DNA of 64,000 nucleotides, from positions 1,824,001 through 1,888,000 of the forward strand of contig OZ257142.1 of the NCBI GenBank assembly GCA_965279035.1. Reading direction: 5' to 3'. The stretch's first letter is position 1. Each line of letters starts with the position of its first letter. A model generated the notes under the pieces. It saw only the letters and a list, made by a program, of their open reading frames with translations. It was not told the DNA's origin and ran no database searches. Below are positions 11,647-17,332 of the stretch, piece by piece. Source of the DNA: Bacteroidia bacterium (GTDB taxonomy: Bacteria > Bacteroidota > Bacteroidia > M30B66). Made by a program: the position numbers and the translations under genes.

Positions 11647-11699
11647 TTTTTTGAATACAATTTATCTACTATTAAACTCGCAATTTATTGTTTTATTTT

Positions 11700-11845
11700 T
11701 TATTCTCCGGATTGAAATCCGAGGTTGCGGGGGTGGGGATTATCTACGTCTTATTCATTTATTAGCCGGATTGAAATCCGGGGTTGCGGGGTTTTATTAT
11801 CTACATCTTATTCATTTATTCCCCGGATTGAAATCCGGGGTTGCC
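11700..11845. repeat. Three tandem 57-59 bp units, each with REP-like hairpin CC(CC)GGATTGAAATCCG(G/A)GG
   Basis: Copies at 11707, 11766, 11823; inverted copy at 15415-15434. Confidence 0.9.
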
Positions 11846-11874: not shown

Positions 11875-12205
11875 TCAGCATACCAGCACACCAGCACATC
11901 AGCACACCAGTTTAATGTGCTAATCCGATAGCTATCGGATAGTTGATGTGCTAATGTGCTTATGGAAAGATCAAATCTGCAACTTTCCGGTAACCTAACA
12001 GCACACTAATTCAATGTGCTAATCCGATAGCTATCGGATAGTTGATATGCTAAAGTGCTAATGGAAAAACACAGCTCCAACCTTCAAGTAGCCTAACAGC
12101 ACATCAGCATATCAGCACACCATTAAATCAATTCAATGTGCTAATTCGATAGCTATCGGATAGTTGATGTGCTAATGAACTAATGGAAAAGAACACTGCT
12201 CAAAC
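11875..12205. repeat. Three composite units: CAGCACAY octamers + 18-bp palindrome ATCCGATAGCTATCGGAT + ATGTGCTA octamers
   Basis: Palindromes at 11923-11940, 12022-12039, 12144-12161 (one mismatch). Confidence 0.92.
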
Positions 12206-13069: not shown

Positions 13070-13211
13070 TAGCCTATTTCACACCATCAAATCAAATTAA
13101 TGTGCTAATCCGATAGCTATCGGATAGCTAATATGCTAATGTGCAGATGAAAAAGAAAACTGCTGCAACTTTCCGGTAACCTAACAGCACACCAGCACAC
13201 CATCACATCAA
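13070..13211. repeat. Fourth composite palindrome/octamer unit
   Basis: ATCCGATAGCTATCGGAT 13108-13125; CACCAGCACACC 13190-13201. Confidence 0.9.
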
Positions 13212-14317: not shown

Positions 14318-15298
14318 CTATTTGCTTTTGTGACGCACTACACTCAATGGCCCATCAATGCGGTTCCCATCGGGTAAAATCAATTCGAATTGATACGTTC
14401 CACTGGGCAAACCAGCACCATCCCAATCGTTTCGATAATTATCCGTTTTAAAAACAACCAGGTCTTTTTTATTTCGAATCGTTAAACGACTATAGCGAGG
14501 CAATCCTTCGATATAAAATAAATCATTAAATCCATCTCCATTGGGTGTAACCACTTCGGGAACGTGCATGCGACCTGCTGGTAATATTTCACCCGAAGGA
14601 GGAGCGATAACCTGCACTTCGGTTGGTTTTTCTACTTCAGGTGTACAGCTACCTAAATACACATTGTCCACATAGAGATAGGCCAAACGAATGTATTGTG
14701 TTTGATCATTTGGCTGAAGATTCGTACTTGCATCGTTACGGAAATTACCAATGGTGACAAACTGTTCACCTCCTTTAGCTTTGAATGTAAAGGATAGGAT
14801 TTTCCAAGTTTTTCCTGTATCCGAAATGGCAAGGTATTTTTGACTTTTGAATTCTGGTTCGCGGATAATGGTGTTCCAGTCGTTCGAGCGTATGGAATCT
14901 TTGCTAAGCGCGATGCCCAATTCATCGGTAAAATAGCTCGATTTTTCTGCTGCCGAAACGGAGATTTTTAAACACAATTCTTCACCCGGAATGAGCATTC
15001 TGCTTAATCGAACTTCGAGGTATTCTCTGAAATTGGGATTGTCGGCATCGTAAAGTATCAAGCCGGCAAACTGTTGTCCTTCAGCAGCCTTTTGCTTTCC
15101 ATGTGGCACCTCTCCCGGTTTGATTAAATCGGGACTACCAATTCCTGCAGGAAACCAAGGACTTGCCTGCTCAATATTTCCTGAATATTTCGATTTTACA
15201 GGCTTCAACGAACGTTCGAAGCTCCCATTGGGTATCAAATTCTGCCCACAAACAGGCAGCACAGAAAGTAGAAAAATTATGGTCAGGAAGCGAATCAT
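14318..15298 (-). CDS. Secreted protein with gliding-motility (type B T9SS) C-terminal domain
   Basis: QNLIPNGSFE beta-sandwich; PEVVTPNGDGFND...NDWDG..LPSGTY. Confidence 0.85.
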   Translation of the reverse strand: MIRFLTIIFLLSVLPVCGQNLIPNGSFERSLKPVKSKYSGNIEQASPWFPAGIGSPDLIKPGEVPHGKQKAAEGQQFAGLILYDADNPNFREYLEVRLSRMLIPGEELCLKISVSAAEKSSYFTDELGIALSKDSIRSNDWNTIIREPEFKSQKYLAISDTGKTWKILSFTFKAKGGEQFVTIGNFRNDASTNLQPNDQTQYIRLAYLYVDNVYLGSCTPEVEKPTEVQVIAPPSGEILPAGRMHVPEVVTPNGDGFNDLFYIEGLPRYSRLTIRNKKDLVVFKTDNYRNDWDGAGLPSGTYQFELILPDGNRIDGPLSVVRHKSK

Positions 15299-15321: not shown

Positions 15322-15670
15322 TAGTGTGCTGATGTGCTAGTTTTTTGATGTGCTAGTTTTCCCGATTGCAATCGGGAGATGTACTAGTTTGTAGCTGCAG
15401 TATACCTCCCGCATCCCCGGATTTCAATCCGGGGGGAGATTACCCTAATCTTTCACATCGCCCCAATCTCTCAATCACCCGCTTCGACAAGCTCAGCGGG
15501 CGGACTCTAGTCTTTCTCTAACCTAAGAGCACACCAACCCACCATCACATCACTTTAATGTGCTAATCCGATAGCTATCGGATAGCTAATGTGCTCATGT
15601 GCTGATGGAAAAGAACACTGCTCCAACCTCGCACTAACCTAACATCACATCATCACACCATCACACCAGC
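15322..15670. repeat. Mosaic REP-like cluster (fifth composite unit plus other palindromes)
   Basis: TCCCGATTGCAATCGGGA 15360-15377, CCCCGGATTTCAATCCGGGG 15415-15434, CTTCGACAAGCTCAG 15482-15496, ATCCGATAGCTATCGGAT 15566-15583. Confidence 0.88.
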
Positions 15671-15685
15671 CTTTAGACTTGCACT

Positions 15686-15870
15686 ATTATTTTAGTTGAG
15701 ATATCTTGACTGAAAATAAACAAAGAAACGGGGTGAACTATCTCATCAGCTAGGTCTTTAAATCCCTAAGGTGTGTATGAGTCCCCGTTTCCTTTAACCA
15801 TGTTGTTAATGGCCAGCTAGAATTTTAGACTTCGAGATCTATTAAAGGTTTTAGCCAAGAGCAACACTTA
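15686..15870 (+). ncRNA. IS110 bridge RNA (5' hairpin, target-binding loop, donor-binding loop)
   Basis: Stems 15687-15719, GAAACGGGG/CCCCGTTTC, TGTTG..GGC/GCC..CAACA; guides match the flanks and element ends. Confidence 0.82.
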
Positions 15871-15881
15871 AAAACAAAAGT

Positions 15882-16862
15882 ATGAAGAAGAACTTTATTG
15901 GCATTGATGTGTCAAAATTAACGCTGGATGTTTATTTACATAATCAATCTCAGCACAACGTCTTTAGCAATGATATCGATGGTTATACACTGATGCTTGC
16001 TTGGTTAAAGCAGTTGAAAGTGAGTGTAAAATCGATGGCCATTTGCTTTGAGCATACGGGTATTTATAGCGAGGATTTATCTGTGTTTTTGAGTGAAAAG
16101 AAGATCTGTTTTTACATGGAATCCTCCTTAAACATTAAGTATTCTATTGGACTTCAGCGAGGCAAAAATGATAAGATAGACTCCCAAAGAATCGCAAATT
16201 TCATTGCATTACATGCAGAACAGCTTAGCCCAACGGTACTATCAAAGAGTGCTGTAGCGCAGCTGAGAAAGCTCTTGAGTATGCGTTCGCATCTGGAAAA
16301 AGAGAAGATAGGCATCAAAAACAGACTTAAGAACTCATCAAAAACCACTGGTGTAGATATAGTTTTTCAAATCGAAACGGATCTGTTAAAGACCTTTAAC
16401 GATAAACTTAAACTGGTAGAAGAGGAAATCAAATCATTGATAAAGTCAGATGATAATCTTCGTCAAATCGACGAATTAGTTCAATCTATAAAAGGAGTTG
16501 GACCAGTGTCGAGTTGGTATTTAATCGCCACAACAAATGGCTTTGAATACTTCGACAATGCTCGTCAATATGCATGTTATAGTGGAATAGCTCCATTCGA
16601 AAAATCATCAGGAACATCCATAAAAGGGAAAACACAAACCGATAGAAGATCAAATCGAAAAATCAATGGAGTATTAACAATGGCGGCGCGTTCGGCAGTA
16701 TTAAATAACACCGAAATGAGAGAATATATGGAGCGTAAAATCCAGGAAGGAAAACATTATAATTGTGCACTCAATGCAGTCAAAAACAAACTTGTATCAA
16801 GAGTATTTGCTGTCGTAAAAAGAAAAACACCCTATGTTGATCTAAAAAAATACGCTGCATAG
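15882..16862 (+). CDS. IS110-family DEDD recombinase/transposase
   Basis: IGIDVSK, FEHTG.Y, KNDKIDS, SIKGVGP, SSGTS catalytic-serine motif. Confidence 0.96.
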   Translation: MKKNFIGIDVSKLTLDVYLHNQSQHNVFSNDIDGYTLMLAWLKQLKVSVKSMAICFEHTGIYSEDLSVFLSEKKICFYMESSLNIKYSIGLQRGKNDKIDSQRIANFIALHAEQLSPTVLSKSAVAQLRKLLSMRSHLEKEKIGIKNRLKNSSKTTGVDIVFQIETDLLKTFNDKLKLVEEEIKSLIKSDDNLRQIDELVQSIKGVGPVSSWYLIATTNGFEYFDNARQYACYSGIAPFEKSSGTSIKGKTQTDRRSNRKINGVLTMAARSAVLNNTEMREYMERKIQEGKHYNCALNAVKNKLVSRVFAVVKRKTPYVDLKKYAA

Positions 16863-17332
16863 ACTTGCATAAGTCCTAGAATACACACCAACCCACCAGC
16901 ACATCAGATAAGTAAGATTCTTACTCTCCTCATCTTATCATCCCTAAAATTTCCGGACTTGGGGGCTTCATTACAAAATCCATTTTCGTTTAAAGAGTGT
17001 AGAGATAAAGTTTTCAACAGAGCTAGTGTTATTTTGACACAATTAATTGGCAATGTGGGTGCTGATAGGCCTTTTATGTGGCTTATTCTGTTGAAAATCA
17101 AGGATTCTGTAAATTTGGTATTTCCATCTGATTGGTCTATTTTTATGCTCCCTAAATTTCCCTTAGAAGTACCCTAATCTGTTTTGCTTTGAAAAATTTT
17201 GACGTGCTTTCTCGCTTCTCAACCCAAAACACTGCATTTTCTGTGTGGTGTAAGAAAAACAGCAAGTCTGTAACGTTTCCGATTTCATCCCGTATGCTTA
17301 GTGTTTTGAAAACTACCCTTTTCCCCGCATCC

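What the first reader, a model, noticed from the sequence alone, without database searches (positions are those of the whole stretch)
15671..16890. IS110 bridge RNA whose guides can be read directly and point at the host's own repeat family
Seen: the 211-nt left end folds into a 5' hairpin and two stems with internal loops. Loop 1 has CATCAGC (15744-15750), an inner hairpin, then GGTGTG (15770-15775, complement of CACACC), together specifying CATCAGCACACC. Removing the element restores CACCAGC|ACACC. Loop 2 has CTAGAAT (15817-15823, identical to right end 16876-16882) and TAAAGGT (15843-15849, complement of ACCTTTA), specifying the circle junction CTAGAATAC|CTTTA. Known: IS110 recombinases such as IS621 use such bispecific RNAs, and IS621 targets REP sequences. 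Inference: this is a Bacteroidota bridge recombinase programmed against a CAGCACAY repeat, with empty sites at 11897-11908 (perfect), 12110-12121 and 13190-13201.
Basis: partly seen in the sequence, partly recalled or inferred. Interest (0 to 1): 0.85.

Follow-up and report, generated by a model that had tools for sequence, protein, structure and literature searches.

The report
Bridge-RNA insertion sequence targeting host repeats
This is an intact IS110-type jumping gene whose own small guide RNA spells out both the host repeat it inserts into and its own joined ends, a known kind of system seen here in a Bacteroidota-type genome with a few unusual details.

Summary
Window 15671-16884 is a 1,214-bp IS110-group insertion sequence with a 211-nt left end, a 326-aa DEDD/Ser recombinase and a 22-nt right end.

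The left end folds into a 5' hairpin plus two stem-loops with internal loops. Loop 1 carries CAUCAGC and GGUGUGU, which match the flanks CACCAGC|ACACC. Loop 2 carries CUAGAAU and UAAAGGU, which match the joined ends CTAGAATAC|CTTTA.

I fetched 12 further left junctions and 12 further right junctions from one genome collection and one metagenome collection. All four guides change together with their DNA partners: cognate 4.4 of 5 variable bases match, against 2.0-2.1 of 5 for non-cognate pairs.

The target is an octamer (CAGCACAY) array belonging to a palindromic host repeat.

This is a new member of a known kind (bridge RNAs, Durrant 2024), not a new mechanism. Three details are worth noting:
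- The circle junction would assemble a Bacteroidota-type -33/-7 promoter.
- The target crossover dinucleotide is always GC while the donor's is always AC, and both are read by a wobble-capable GU.
- This asymmetry fits recent top-strand-transfer models.

No RNA or transposition data exist for this element.

The parts
15671..16884 (+). Complete IS110-group insertion sequence, 1,214 bp. No target duplication; only one base (C) is shared by the two junctions.
   Evidence: In the related full copies, L019 is 1,215 bp, L001, L020 and L021 are 1,249 bp, L018 is 1,254 bp and L015 is 1,312 bp; the frameshifted cargo-bearing copies L016 and L017 are 1,713 and 1,715 bp.
15671..15881 (+). Left end (211 nt) encoding the predicted bridge RNA.
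   Evidence: Fold; 8-sequence alignment and consensus fold; pair counts.
15674..15681 (+). TAGACTTG, a -7-like box (consensus TAnnTTTG) of a promoter that is complete only across the circle junction.
   Evidence: TAnnYTTG at left-end positions 4-11 in 9 of 9 complete elements. The consensus is taken from passages of PMC7366714 and PMC2483708. This is inferred, with no transcript data.
16864..16867 (+). CTTG, a -33-like box (consensus TTTG) in the right end. In the circle it lies 20 bp upstream of the -7-like box.
   Evidence: a YTTG with a 19-20 bp spacer in 9 of 9 circle junctions. None occurs in the 32 nt upstream of the 8 integrated copies that could be checked.
15690..15715 (+). 5' hairpin of the RNA. 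It is variable across relatives.
15725..15791 (+). Target-binding stem-loop: outer stem GAAACGGGG/CCCCGUUUC, an internal loop and an apical hairpin.
   Evidence: Helix 2 is 97.5% paired, with 3 pairs changed on both sides.
15744..15750 (+). Left target guide CAUCAGC: 5 variable nt followed by GC. It has the same sense as the left flank.
   Evidence: Against CACCAGC it gives 6 Watson-Crick pairs and 1 U.G wobble.
15770..15776 (+). Right target guide GGUGUGU. It pairs with the top strand (G/A)C-ACACC.
15777..15778 (+). AU directly 3' of the right target guide, in the position of the IS621 handshake dinucleotide. It is complementary to the last two bases (AT) of the element's right end.
   Evidence: Invariant in 8 of 8 aligned left ends. 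The handshake concept comes from passages of PMC13626964. This is inferred by analogy.
15801..15866 (+). Donor-binding stem-loop.
   Evidence: Helix 5 has 6 pairs changed on both sides.
15817..15823 (+). Left donor guide CUAGAAU, identical to right-end bases 16876-16882.
   Evidence: Guide and right end co-vary as CTAGAAT, TTAGAAT or ATAGGAT, with 9 of 9 perfect.
15843..15849 (+). Right donor guide UAAAGGU, complementary to AC-CTTTA at the circle junction.
15882..16862 (+). Recombinase gene, 326 aa, intact. The residues D9, E57, D97, D100 and S243-G244 align with the IS621 catalytic residues.
   Evidence: The IS621 residue numbers come from passages of PMC11208158.
16863..16884 (+). Right end (22 nt), ending in CTAGAAT-AC.
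15664..15670 (+). Left half of the occupied target, CACCA-GC.
16885..16889 (+). Right half of the occupied target, ACACC.
11897..11908 (+). Unoccupied site CATCAGCACACC, a perfect match to both target guides.
13190..13201 (+). Unoccupied site CACCAGCACACC, the same 12-mer as the restored occupied site.
12110..12121 (+). Unoccupied site TATCAGCACACC, mismatched at the first position. TATCAGC is also the left flank of 2 occupied sites in G003.
15519..15670 (+). Host repeat unit carrying the insertion. It consists of an octamer array, the palindrome ATCCGATAGCTATCGGAT, complementary octamers, a spacer and the octamer array that holds the target.
   Evidence: families D1-D4, with copies also at 11876, 11975, 12097 and 13061. 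One search gives a DNA hairpin at -12.9 kcal/mol, z -2.6.

Best explanation
Window 15671-16884 is an intact, probably recently active IS110-group insertion sequence. Its recombinase is guided by a bridge RNA encoded in its own left end.

**Shown by sequence and comparison**
- The RNA has a target-binding loop. [quoted passage not shown]
- It has a donor-binding loop. CUAGAAU pairs with the right end, and UAAAGGU pairs with AC-CTTTA of the joined ends.
- In relatives, each of these four segments changes together with its DNA partner.
- The programmed 12-mer CAYCAGCACACC recurs in octamer arrays of a palindromic host repeat. The element therefore lands in intergenic repeats rather than in genes.

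**Inferred**
- The element excises as a circle. Its junction CTAGAATAC|CTTTAGAC puts a -33-like YTTG from the right end 19-20 bp upstream of a -7-like TAnnYTTG in the left end. That would make a Bacteroidota-type promoter that fires only from the circle and starts the RNA near 15686-15690.
- The top strands are cut after the invariant C and exchanged, as in IS621.
- In this clade the base before that C is G in every target and A in every donor. The U at the 3' end of both top-strand guides reads A by Watson-Crick pairing and G by wobble.
- Every left junction keeps GC and every right junction keeps AC. This is what top-strand transfer followed by replication would leave.
For: **Protein**
- PF01548 and PF02371.
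- NF033542 above its cut-off.
- Full-length alignment to ISCro4 (E 1.6e-25) and IS621 (E 1.5e-22), with DEDD and Ser-Gly conserved.

**RNA fold**
- 90.6% of cells are paired against 38-51% in the slid controls, and 9 pairs change on both sides.

**Guide and flank covariation**
- Left target guide, 5 variable nt: cognate mean 4.38 of 5 (n=13) against 2.09 of 5 for non-cognate pairs (n=118).
- Right target guide: 4.44 of 5 (n=9) against 1.98 of 5 (n=62). These counts use Watson-Crick pairs only.
- Examples: L016 guide GGCGAUGGC with flank GGCGATGGC; L015 guide CCCGCCAGC with flank CCCGCCGGC; L001 and L021 guide AAAUAGC with flank AAATAGC.
- The left donor guide equals the right end in 9 of 9, across three variants.

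**Junctions**
- 13 of 13 left junctions read GC|CTTTAG and 13 of 13 right junctions read AT-AC|.
- More distant relatives have the same dinucleotide at both junctions: AC/AC in L027, GC/GC in L028, TC/TC in L031 and L032.

**Promoter**
- One search shows the motif pair in 9 of 9 circle junctions.

**Copy number**
- The IS unitig 15667-16887 has depth 748 against 165-185 for its flanks in run X1, and 2265 against 500-540 in run X2. That suggests about four identical copies, all sharing CAGC...ACA.

**Top-strand chemistry**
- Abstracts and passages of two preprints.
Against: - There is no transcript, circle-junction or transposition evidence for this element. No listed sequencing run is on record as RNA.
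- Rfam 15 gave only chance-level hits in 15400-17200.
- The single-sequence fold is only marginally better than shuffles.
- The occupied window site matches the left guide through a wobble, not perfectly.
- 3 of 13 left flanks (L004, L005, L020) mismatch the guide at the outermost variable base, and L015 mismatches at the innermost.
- The two bases after the left donor guide (UU, AA or AU) do not read the donor dinucleotide, unlike in IS621.
- Some non-cognate pairs reach 4-5 of 5 because several guide sets are related.
- The junctions are not all independent events. L001 and L021, and L016 and L017, have similar flanks.
- Depth of contigs is only a rough copy number.
- The -33 motif is CTTG, not TTTG, in the window. 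The 19-21 bp spacing rule is recalled, not taken from a call.
Confidence: 0.88

Rival explanations
1. The G/A difference before the shared C is not a mismatched crossover dinucleotide. In this reading the crossover region is the single C, the G belongs to the left target arm and the A belongs to the right end. Ordinary double-strand exchange through a Holliday junction would then leave the observed junctions with no heteroduplex, and nothing could be said about strand bias.
For: Only C is common to both junctions in all 13 left and 13 right junctions. The left donor guide is followed by non-conserved bases that do not read the dinucleotide. In IS621 the published structures place bottom-strand cleavage such that mismatch repair was already invoked (passage of PMC11208158).
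Against: In three more distant lineages the dinucleotide is identical at both junctions: AC/AC, GC/GC and TC/TC. This argues for a constraint on the first position too. Both top-strand guides in the window clade end in GU, which spans two bases. The left target guide also spans GC.
Confidence: 0.35
2. The left end is only a structured 5' UTR or promoter region, and site choice is made by the protein. The loop matches to the flanks would then be coincidence or a by-product of the element living in low-complexity CA-rich repeats.
For: The fold z-score is weak. The window target is low-complexity and common locally. There is no RNA evidence.
Against: Guides and flanks co-vary in relatives whose targets are not CA-rich, such as GGCGATGGC|TCTATA in L016 and CCCGCCGGC|GGGGGA in L015. 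The donor guide co-varies with the right end in 9 of 9. The geometry is the one shown experimentally for IS621.
Confidence: 0.04
3. The copy is a fixed, inactive relic, so the empty sites are irrelevant today.
For: Only one copy is visible in the 64-kb window. Relatives L016 and L017 have frameshifted recombinase genes.
Against: The ORF is intact with its catalytic residues. The assembly unitig of the element has about 4.3 times the depth of its flanks with no variant positions in runs X1 and X2, as expected for several identical, recently made copies.
Confidence: 0.1

Closest known systems
IS621 of Escherichia coli, with its 177-nt bridge RNA (Durrant et al. 2024, PMC11208160; Hiraizumi et al. 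2024, PMC11208158)
   Same: The RNA lies in a long left end, upstream of a DEDD plus Ser recombinase. It has a 5' hairpin and two internal-loop stem-loops, with four guides of the same polarity. The target lies in a repetitive palindromic host element. A guide-target wobble occurs at natural sites: IS621's loop encodes ATCGGGCCTAC while the natural site is ATCAGGCCTAC. The promoter is split across the circle junction.
   Different: The proteins are only distantly related (phmmer E 1.5e-22). Rfam gives no hit. The left target arm has 5 variable nt rather than 7. The crossover dinucleotide is RC, not CT, and differs between target (GC) and donor (AC). The left donor guide does not read it. The split promoter fits the Bacteroidota -33/-7 consensus instead of sigma-70 -35/-10.
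ISCro4 recombinase (PDB 9t56)
   Same: It is the best solved-structure match (E 1.6e-25, residues 4-318 aligned).
   Different: The similarity is distant, and its RNA was not compared here.
ISPpu9 and ISPpu10 of Pseudomonas putida (PMC12288879; bioRxiv 10.64898/2026.03.19.712850; abstracts only)
   Same: These are IS110 elements that insert into repetitive extragenic palindromes or into a conserved intergenic stem-loop.
   Different: The host phylum is different. Whether the neighbouring palindrome here (ATCCGATAGCTATCGGAT) acts as a structural determinant was not tested.
CazIS110-1 (bioRxiv 10.1101/2025.10.25.684509) and IS621 in a cell-free system (bioRxiv 10.64898/2026.08.31.748434)
   Same: Both report top-strand excision and insertion (copy-out, paste-in). 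The invariant pattern of target dinucleotide on the left and donor dinucleotide on the right seen here is what that chemistry predicts.
   Different: Those are biochemical results on other elements. Here there is only a comparative pattern.
IS1111-group elements and seekRNA
   Same: They belong to the same recombinase family and use RNA-guided targeting.
   Different: In IS1111 the RNA is encoded in a long right end. Here the right end is 22 nt and the RNA lies in the left end.

Membership tests
IS110 family (IS110 group) insertion sequence | Recombinase with an N-terminal DEDD RuvC-like domain (PF01548) and a C-terminal Tnp domain (PF02371) | tested here: met
   PF01548 at 60.3 bits against a cut-off of 29, and PF02371 at 66.8 bits against 21.3. 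NF033542 at 169 bits against 140.
IS110 family (IS110 group) insertion sequence | Catalytic D, E, D, D and Ser(-Gly) residues conserved | tested here: met
   D9, E57, D97, D100 and S243-G244 align with IS621 D11, E60, D102, D105 and S241-G242. The PDB chain carries a 2-residue offset, which is my reading of the alignment.
IS110 family (IS110 group) insertion sequence | Long left end, short right end, no terminal inverted repeats and no target duplication | tested here: met
   The left end is 211 nt and the right end 22 nt. Only one shared base lies at the junctions. The group criterion comes from a passage of PMC11208160.
Bridge RNA | [quoted passage not shown] | tested here: met
Bridge RNA | [quoted passage not shown] | tested here: met
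   using 13 left junctions and 9 complete elements.
Bridge RNA | The second loop pairs with the element's own right and left ends (the circle junction) and co-varies with them | tested here: met
   The left donor guide equals the right end in 9 of 9 across three variants. The right donor guide pairs with AC-CTTTA in all 11 left ends in which it could be read.
Bridge RNA | An identical core dinucleotide in target and donor, read by all four guides (IS621 rule) | tested here: not met
   The target is GC and the donor AC in 13 of 13 left and 13 of 13 right junctions. The left donor guide does not read it. Relatives L027, L028, L031 and L032 do have identical dinucleotides. This is a departure from the IS621 prototype rather than from the class as a whole.
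Bridge RNA | The RNA is transcribed, binds the recombinase and is required for recombination | not testable with these tools
   No run on record as RNA was listed. This needs wet-lab work.
Bridge RNA | Match to a curated covariance model | tested here: inconclusive
   Rfam 15 gave no relevant hit at E up to 10. I did not establish whether Rfam 15 holds a bridge RNA family at all.

The most novel reading that the evidence does not exclude
In this clade the crossover dinucleotide is deliberately unequal: G-C in every target and A-C in every donor. It is bridged by a 3'-terminal U in both top-strand guides, which reads A by Watson-Crick pairing and G by wobble. The A has never been overwritten by the target's G during diversification into at least six guide sets. 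This clade would therefore be a natural strand marker showing that only the top strand's information is inherited at each junction. That would be independent, in-vivo, evolutionary-scale support for single-strand (copy-out, paste-in) bridge transposition. The same clade would also show that the split circle-junction promoter has been rebuilt for the Bacteroidota sigma factor.
Probability: 0.3. Interest if true: 0.6.

Novelty: new member of a known kind. Interest (0 to 1): 0.35.

Why it matters
The element gives a cleanly readable, comparatively validated bridge recombinase and RNA pair from a Bacteroidota-type genome. Its 12-nt target code is CAYCA-GC-ACACC. A set of natural reprogrammed relatives serves as a ready-made specificity panel.

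For genome annotation, it explains why this element sits in repeat arrays and predicts where further copies can land.

For the mechanism debate over Holliday-junction against top-strand-only transposition, the unequal GC/AC dinucleotide offers a built-in marker. An ordinary junction-sequencing experiment could exploit it.

It does not reveal a new class of system. Bridge RNAs have been predicted for most IS110 elements since 2024, and NCBI already names the protein family 'RNA-guided transposase'.

Tried and rejected
- Supplementary files of the papers were not opened. Supplementary Data 2 and Table 5 of PMC11208160 list predicted bridge RNAs and target motifs and may already include this clade.

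**Searches that gave little or nothing**
- Rfam: only four chance-level hits (E 3-9) to unrelated families.
- Sequencing runs: no RNA holder listed, so nothing can be said about expression.
- Read laying: no contig joins across the element (no empty-site allele) and no circle junction was seen. The runs are contigs, so this is not evidence of absence.
- Order-level genome search around G003: 1 of 24 genomes matched, and that was G003 itself.
- Class-level sample: 7 of 400 genomes matched. Six of these matched only weakly, on the donor loop.
  - L030 (G364) did not contain the motif pair I screened for and was dropped.
- L003 (32% identity) was not analysed.

**Limits of what was found**
- I could not link the two right-target-guide variants in G003 to particular right flanks, because the contigs break inside the element. 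Only the metagenome contig L019 links the GGUGU variant to ACATC.

**Ideas considered and dropped**
- A sigma-70 promoter scan, which is not applicable to this phylum.
- RNAalifold's pairing of the left donor guide with the right donor guide. I treat it as an alternative RNA-only fold, not the functional state.
- A crossover dinucleotide of CC/CA instead of GC/AC. It gives the same sequences but has no guide support.

**Literature searches**
I found no paper describing this clade, an unequal target/donor dinucleotide in a natural IS110, or a Bacteroidota-type split promoter. These were four keyword searches of an incomplete library, so this is not proof that the points are unpublished.
Full report
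**What is in the sequence**

Between a T9SS-type gene on the minus strand (14318-15298) and a 7,068-aa ORF (17189-38395) lies one intact ORF, 15882-16862 on the plus strand, of 326 aa. It carries both IS110 domains, PF01548 and PF02371. It passes NCBIfam NF033542, 'IS110 family RNA-guided transposase', at 169 bits against a cut-off of 140.

The protein aligns over residues 4-318 with the two solved bridge recombinases, ISCro4 (E 1.6e-25) and IS621 (E 1.5e-22). Residues D9, E57, D97, D100 and S243-G244 fall on the IS621 catalytic residues D11, E60, D102, D105 and S241-G242.

The neighbouring ORFs carry T9SS type A and type B sorting domains. The related contigs carry Bacteroidota, Bacteroidia or Chitinophaga labels.

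**Boundaries**

The sequence reads ...CATCACACCAGC|CTTTAGACTTGCAC...GTCCTAGAATAC|ACACCAACCCACCAGCACATCAG. Taking out 15671-16884 restores CAGC+ACAC, which is one unit of the surrounding 8-nt periodic array (family D3).

The same ends, CTTTAG... and ...TAGAATAC, bound relatives in other assemblies. The element is therefore 1,214 bp, with a 211-nt left end and a 22-nt right end. The finding's end coordinate (16890) overshoots by 6 nt.

**The RNA**

The 211 nt fold into a 5' hairpin (15690-15715) and two stem-loops with internal loops, at 15725-15791 and about 15801-15866. On its own this is weak (z -2.0).

I aligned eight distinct left ends and counted pairs for the proposed structure.
- 90.6% of cells form standard pairs, against 38-51% when the 3' partners are slid by 1-3 columns.
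- 9 pairs change on both sides, against at most 3 in the slid controls.
- 0 of 500 shuffles reach the observed covariation score.

RNAalifold found the first stem-loop independently. For the second it preferred to pair the two donor guides with each other, which I read as an RNA-only alternative fold.

**Guides**

The geometry established for IS621 is as follows. [quoted passage not shown] Read that way:
- Loop 1 gives CAUCAGC (15744-15750) and GGUGUGU (15770-15776). These specify CAYCA-GC followed by ACACC.
- Loop 2 gives CUAGAAU (15817-15823) and UAAAGGU (15843-15849). These specify CTAGAAT...AC-CTTTA, the joined ends.

The occupied site is CACCAGC, so the guide's U faces a G on the bottom strand. 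That is a wobble, not a mismatch. IS621 behaves the same way: its natural site ATCAGGCCTAC differs from the loop-encoded ATCGGGCCTAC.

**Comparative test**

Three searches supplied the comparison set:
- one scan of genome contigs with the protein;
- a search of three genomes;
- one scan of metagenome contigs with a conserved left-end pattern.

Together with the window they gave 13 left junctions (window, L001, L004, L005, L011, L012, L015-L021) and 13 right junctions (window, L001, L002, L010, L013, L014, L015-L021). Nine elements are complete.

The scaffold is conserved while the guide segments differ, and each follows its DNA:

| Locus | Left target guide | Left flank | Right target guide (complement shown where given) | Right flank |
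|---|---|---|---|---|
| L016 | GGCGAUGGC | GGCGATGGC | UUAUAGAGU, complement AC-TCTATAA | TCTATAG |
| L015 | CCCGCCAGC | CCCGCCGGC | pairs by 2 wobbles | GGGGGA |
| L018 | AAUUAGC | CATTAGC | UGAUGUGU | ACATCA |
| L001, L020, L021 | AAAUAGC | AAATAGC or GAATAGC | AGUGUGU | ACACT or ACATT |

The left donor guide is CUAGAAU, UUAGAAU or AUAGGAU exactly where the right end is CTAGAAT, TTAGAAT or ATAGGAT (9 of 9).

Over the five variable positions, counting Watson-Crick pairs only:
- the left target guide scores a cognate mean of 4.38 of 5 (n=13) against 2.09 of 5 for guides paired with other elements' flanks (n=118);
- the right target guide scores 4.44 of 5 (n=9) against 1.98 of 5 (n=62).

With wobbles allowed, the cognate means are 4.62 and 4.89.

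Caveats:
- Several guide sets are related, so 12 of 118 and 12 of 62 non-cognate pairs reach 4 or more.
- Some junctions may share ancestry (L001 with L021, L016 with L017).
- L004, L005 and L020 mismatch at the outermost variable base, and L015 mismatches at the innermost.

**The target is a host repeat**

The window holds five copies of a 93-130-nt unit (starts at 11876, 11975, 12097, 13061 and 15519). Each has a CAGCACAY octamer array, the perfect palindrome ATCCGATAGCTATCGGAT and the complementary octamers. The unit at 15525-15612 folds as a DNA hairpin at -12.9 kcal/mol, z -2.6.

CAYCAGCACACC with up to 1 mismatch occurs 9 times in the window, against 0.23 expected. All nine lie between 11.8 kb and 16.9 kb.

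In genome G003 there are at least 4 left ends and 3 right ends. The flanks are ATCAGC|ACAT arrays next to a similar palindrome. ATCAGCACAT occurs 37 times there, against 2 for the reversed control. The L001/L020/L021 element also sits in a recurring flank (GAAATAGC|ACAYT..GGCAAG).

Targeting of repetitive palindromes is known for IS621 and for ISPpu9/ISPpu10.

**Activity**

In the two isolate runs I laid, the element is one unitig (15667-16887) with no variant positions. Its depth is 748 against 165-185 for the flanks in X1, and 2265 against 500-540 in X2. That suggests about four identical copies.

The unitig stops exactly at CAGC on the left and ACA on the right. The next bases out are the Y positions that the guides read by wobble. 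Contig depth is only a rough measure. No empty-site or circle-junction contig was seen, which shows nothing either way.

*(i) Promoter.* In 9 of 9 complete elements the joined ends place a YTTG in the right end 19-20 bp upstream of a TAnnYTTG at left-end positions 4-11. In the window these are CTTG at 16864-16867 and TAGACTTG at 15674-15681. None of the 8 integrated copies that could be checked has a YTTG in the 32 nt upstream.

TAnnTTTG at -7 and TTTG at about -33 are the published Bacteroidetes housekeeping promoter consensus (passages of PMC7366714 and PMC2483708). The usual spacing is recalled, not taken from a call. This mirrors the sigma-70 promoter that IS621 reconstitutes on circularisation, translated into another phylum's promoter grammar. 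It is inferred, not shown.

*(ii) Crossover dinucleotide.* IS621 has CT in both target and donor, read by all four guides. Here the only base common to both junctions is C.
- All 13 left junctions read GC|CTTTAG.
- All 13 right junctions read AC|.
- The left target guide ends in GC.
- Both top-strand guides end in GU, which reads AC perfectly and GC by wobble.
- The bases after the left donor guide (UU, AA or AU) do not read the dinucleotide.

More distant relatives found in a 400-genome sample (7 of 400 matched) have equal dinucleotides: AC/AC in L027, GC/GC in L028 and TC/TC in L031 and L032. So a two-base crossover region seems ancestral, and the window clade has relaxed its first base to purine/purine.

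*(iii) Handshake position.* The two bases after the right target guide (AU, invariant in 8 of 8) are complementary to the last two bases of the right end (AT). In IS621 the dinucleotide at this position pairs with the incoming strand after top-strand exchange and tunes efficiency (PMC13626964, passages). By analogy, the post-exchange state of insertion would be favoured here.

**Reading of the asymmetry**

IS621 cuts the top strands just 3' of the dinucleotide. Suppose only the top strand is transferred and replication then fixes it, as two preprints report for CazIS110-1 and IS621. The left junction would then always keep the target's dinucleotide and the right junction the donor's, which is exactly what is seen.

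Exchange of both strands over a 2-nt stagger would create G.T and A.C heteroduplexes. It should sometimes convert the donor A to G, and this has not happened in any sampled member.

The rival is that the crossover is the single C, in which case the pattern says nothing about strands. I rate that at about one in three. Only cleavage mapping or junction sequencing in a repair-deficient host can decide.

**Verdict**

The system belongs to a class described in 2024, for which covariance models already predict an RNA in 85.7% of IS110-group elements. It is therefore a new member of a known kind. The unequal dinucleotide and the phylum-specific split promoter are modest, testable additions.

My four literature searches found no description of these two points. 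The library is incomplete, and the papers' supplements were closed.

Noticed in passing
window 17189-38395 (+): A single 7,068-aa ORF with highly repetitive Thr/Ser/Gly/Asn-rich modules and a C-terminal T9SS type A sorting domain (Por_Secre_tail, 36.9 bits). It starts about 300 bp downstream of the insertion sequence.
   Followed up: partly
window 11680-11844 (+) and 15408-15434: A second repeat family. Three tandem units of about 58 nt each end in the hairpin CCCCGGATTGAAATCCGGGG followed by TTGC. An inverted copy lies at 15408-15434 (96% complementary). It sits next to the octamer/palindrome repeats in both intergenic regions (families D6, D8 and I4-I6).
   Followed up: no
L016 (1,713-bp element) and L017 (1,715-bp element): Relatives with frameshifted recombinase genes (ORFs stop after 86 and 67 aa) and about 450 bp of extra sequence between the gene remnant and the right end. 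Their guides, ends and split promoter motifs are still intact and still match the flanks. They may be mobilised in trans.
   Followed up: partly
L004/L011 versus L005/L012 (genome G003): One genome carries two variants of the right target guide (AAGGUGUGU and AUAGUGUGU) on otherwise near-identical left ends. Its right flanks are of two kinds (ACATC.. and ACATTAG..). This looks like guide drift within one host, but the contigs break, so guide and flank cannot be linked.
   Followed up: partly
L018, apical part of the target-binding stem-loop: The apical hairpin contains CTTAGAATAC, a close copy of the element's own right end plus dinucleotide (CTAGAATAC). It is absent from the other members. 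It could be chance or a donor mimic.
   Followed up: no
window 15674-15683 and 16860-16869: The 10-mer TAGACTTGCA occurs in direct orientation near both ends of the element. In the left end it forms the -7-like box. In the right end it overlaps the stop codon and supplies the -33-like CTTG.
   Followed up: partly
window 15817-15835 versus the circle junction: The 5' strand of the donor loop (CUAGAAU-UUUAGACUU) reads like the joined ends with the three bases ACC removed (CTAGAAT[ACC]TTTAGACTT). The stretch UAGAC also forms the loop's inner hairpin. The significance is unknown.
   Followed up: no
run X5 (organism B), laid on window 15735-16907: A second organism holds a 95-99% identical copy with the AUAGUGUGU guide variant (changes at 15769 and 15770). 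Its right flank still aligns to 16885-16907 of the window.
   Followed up: no
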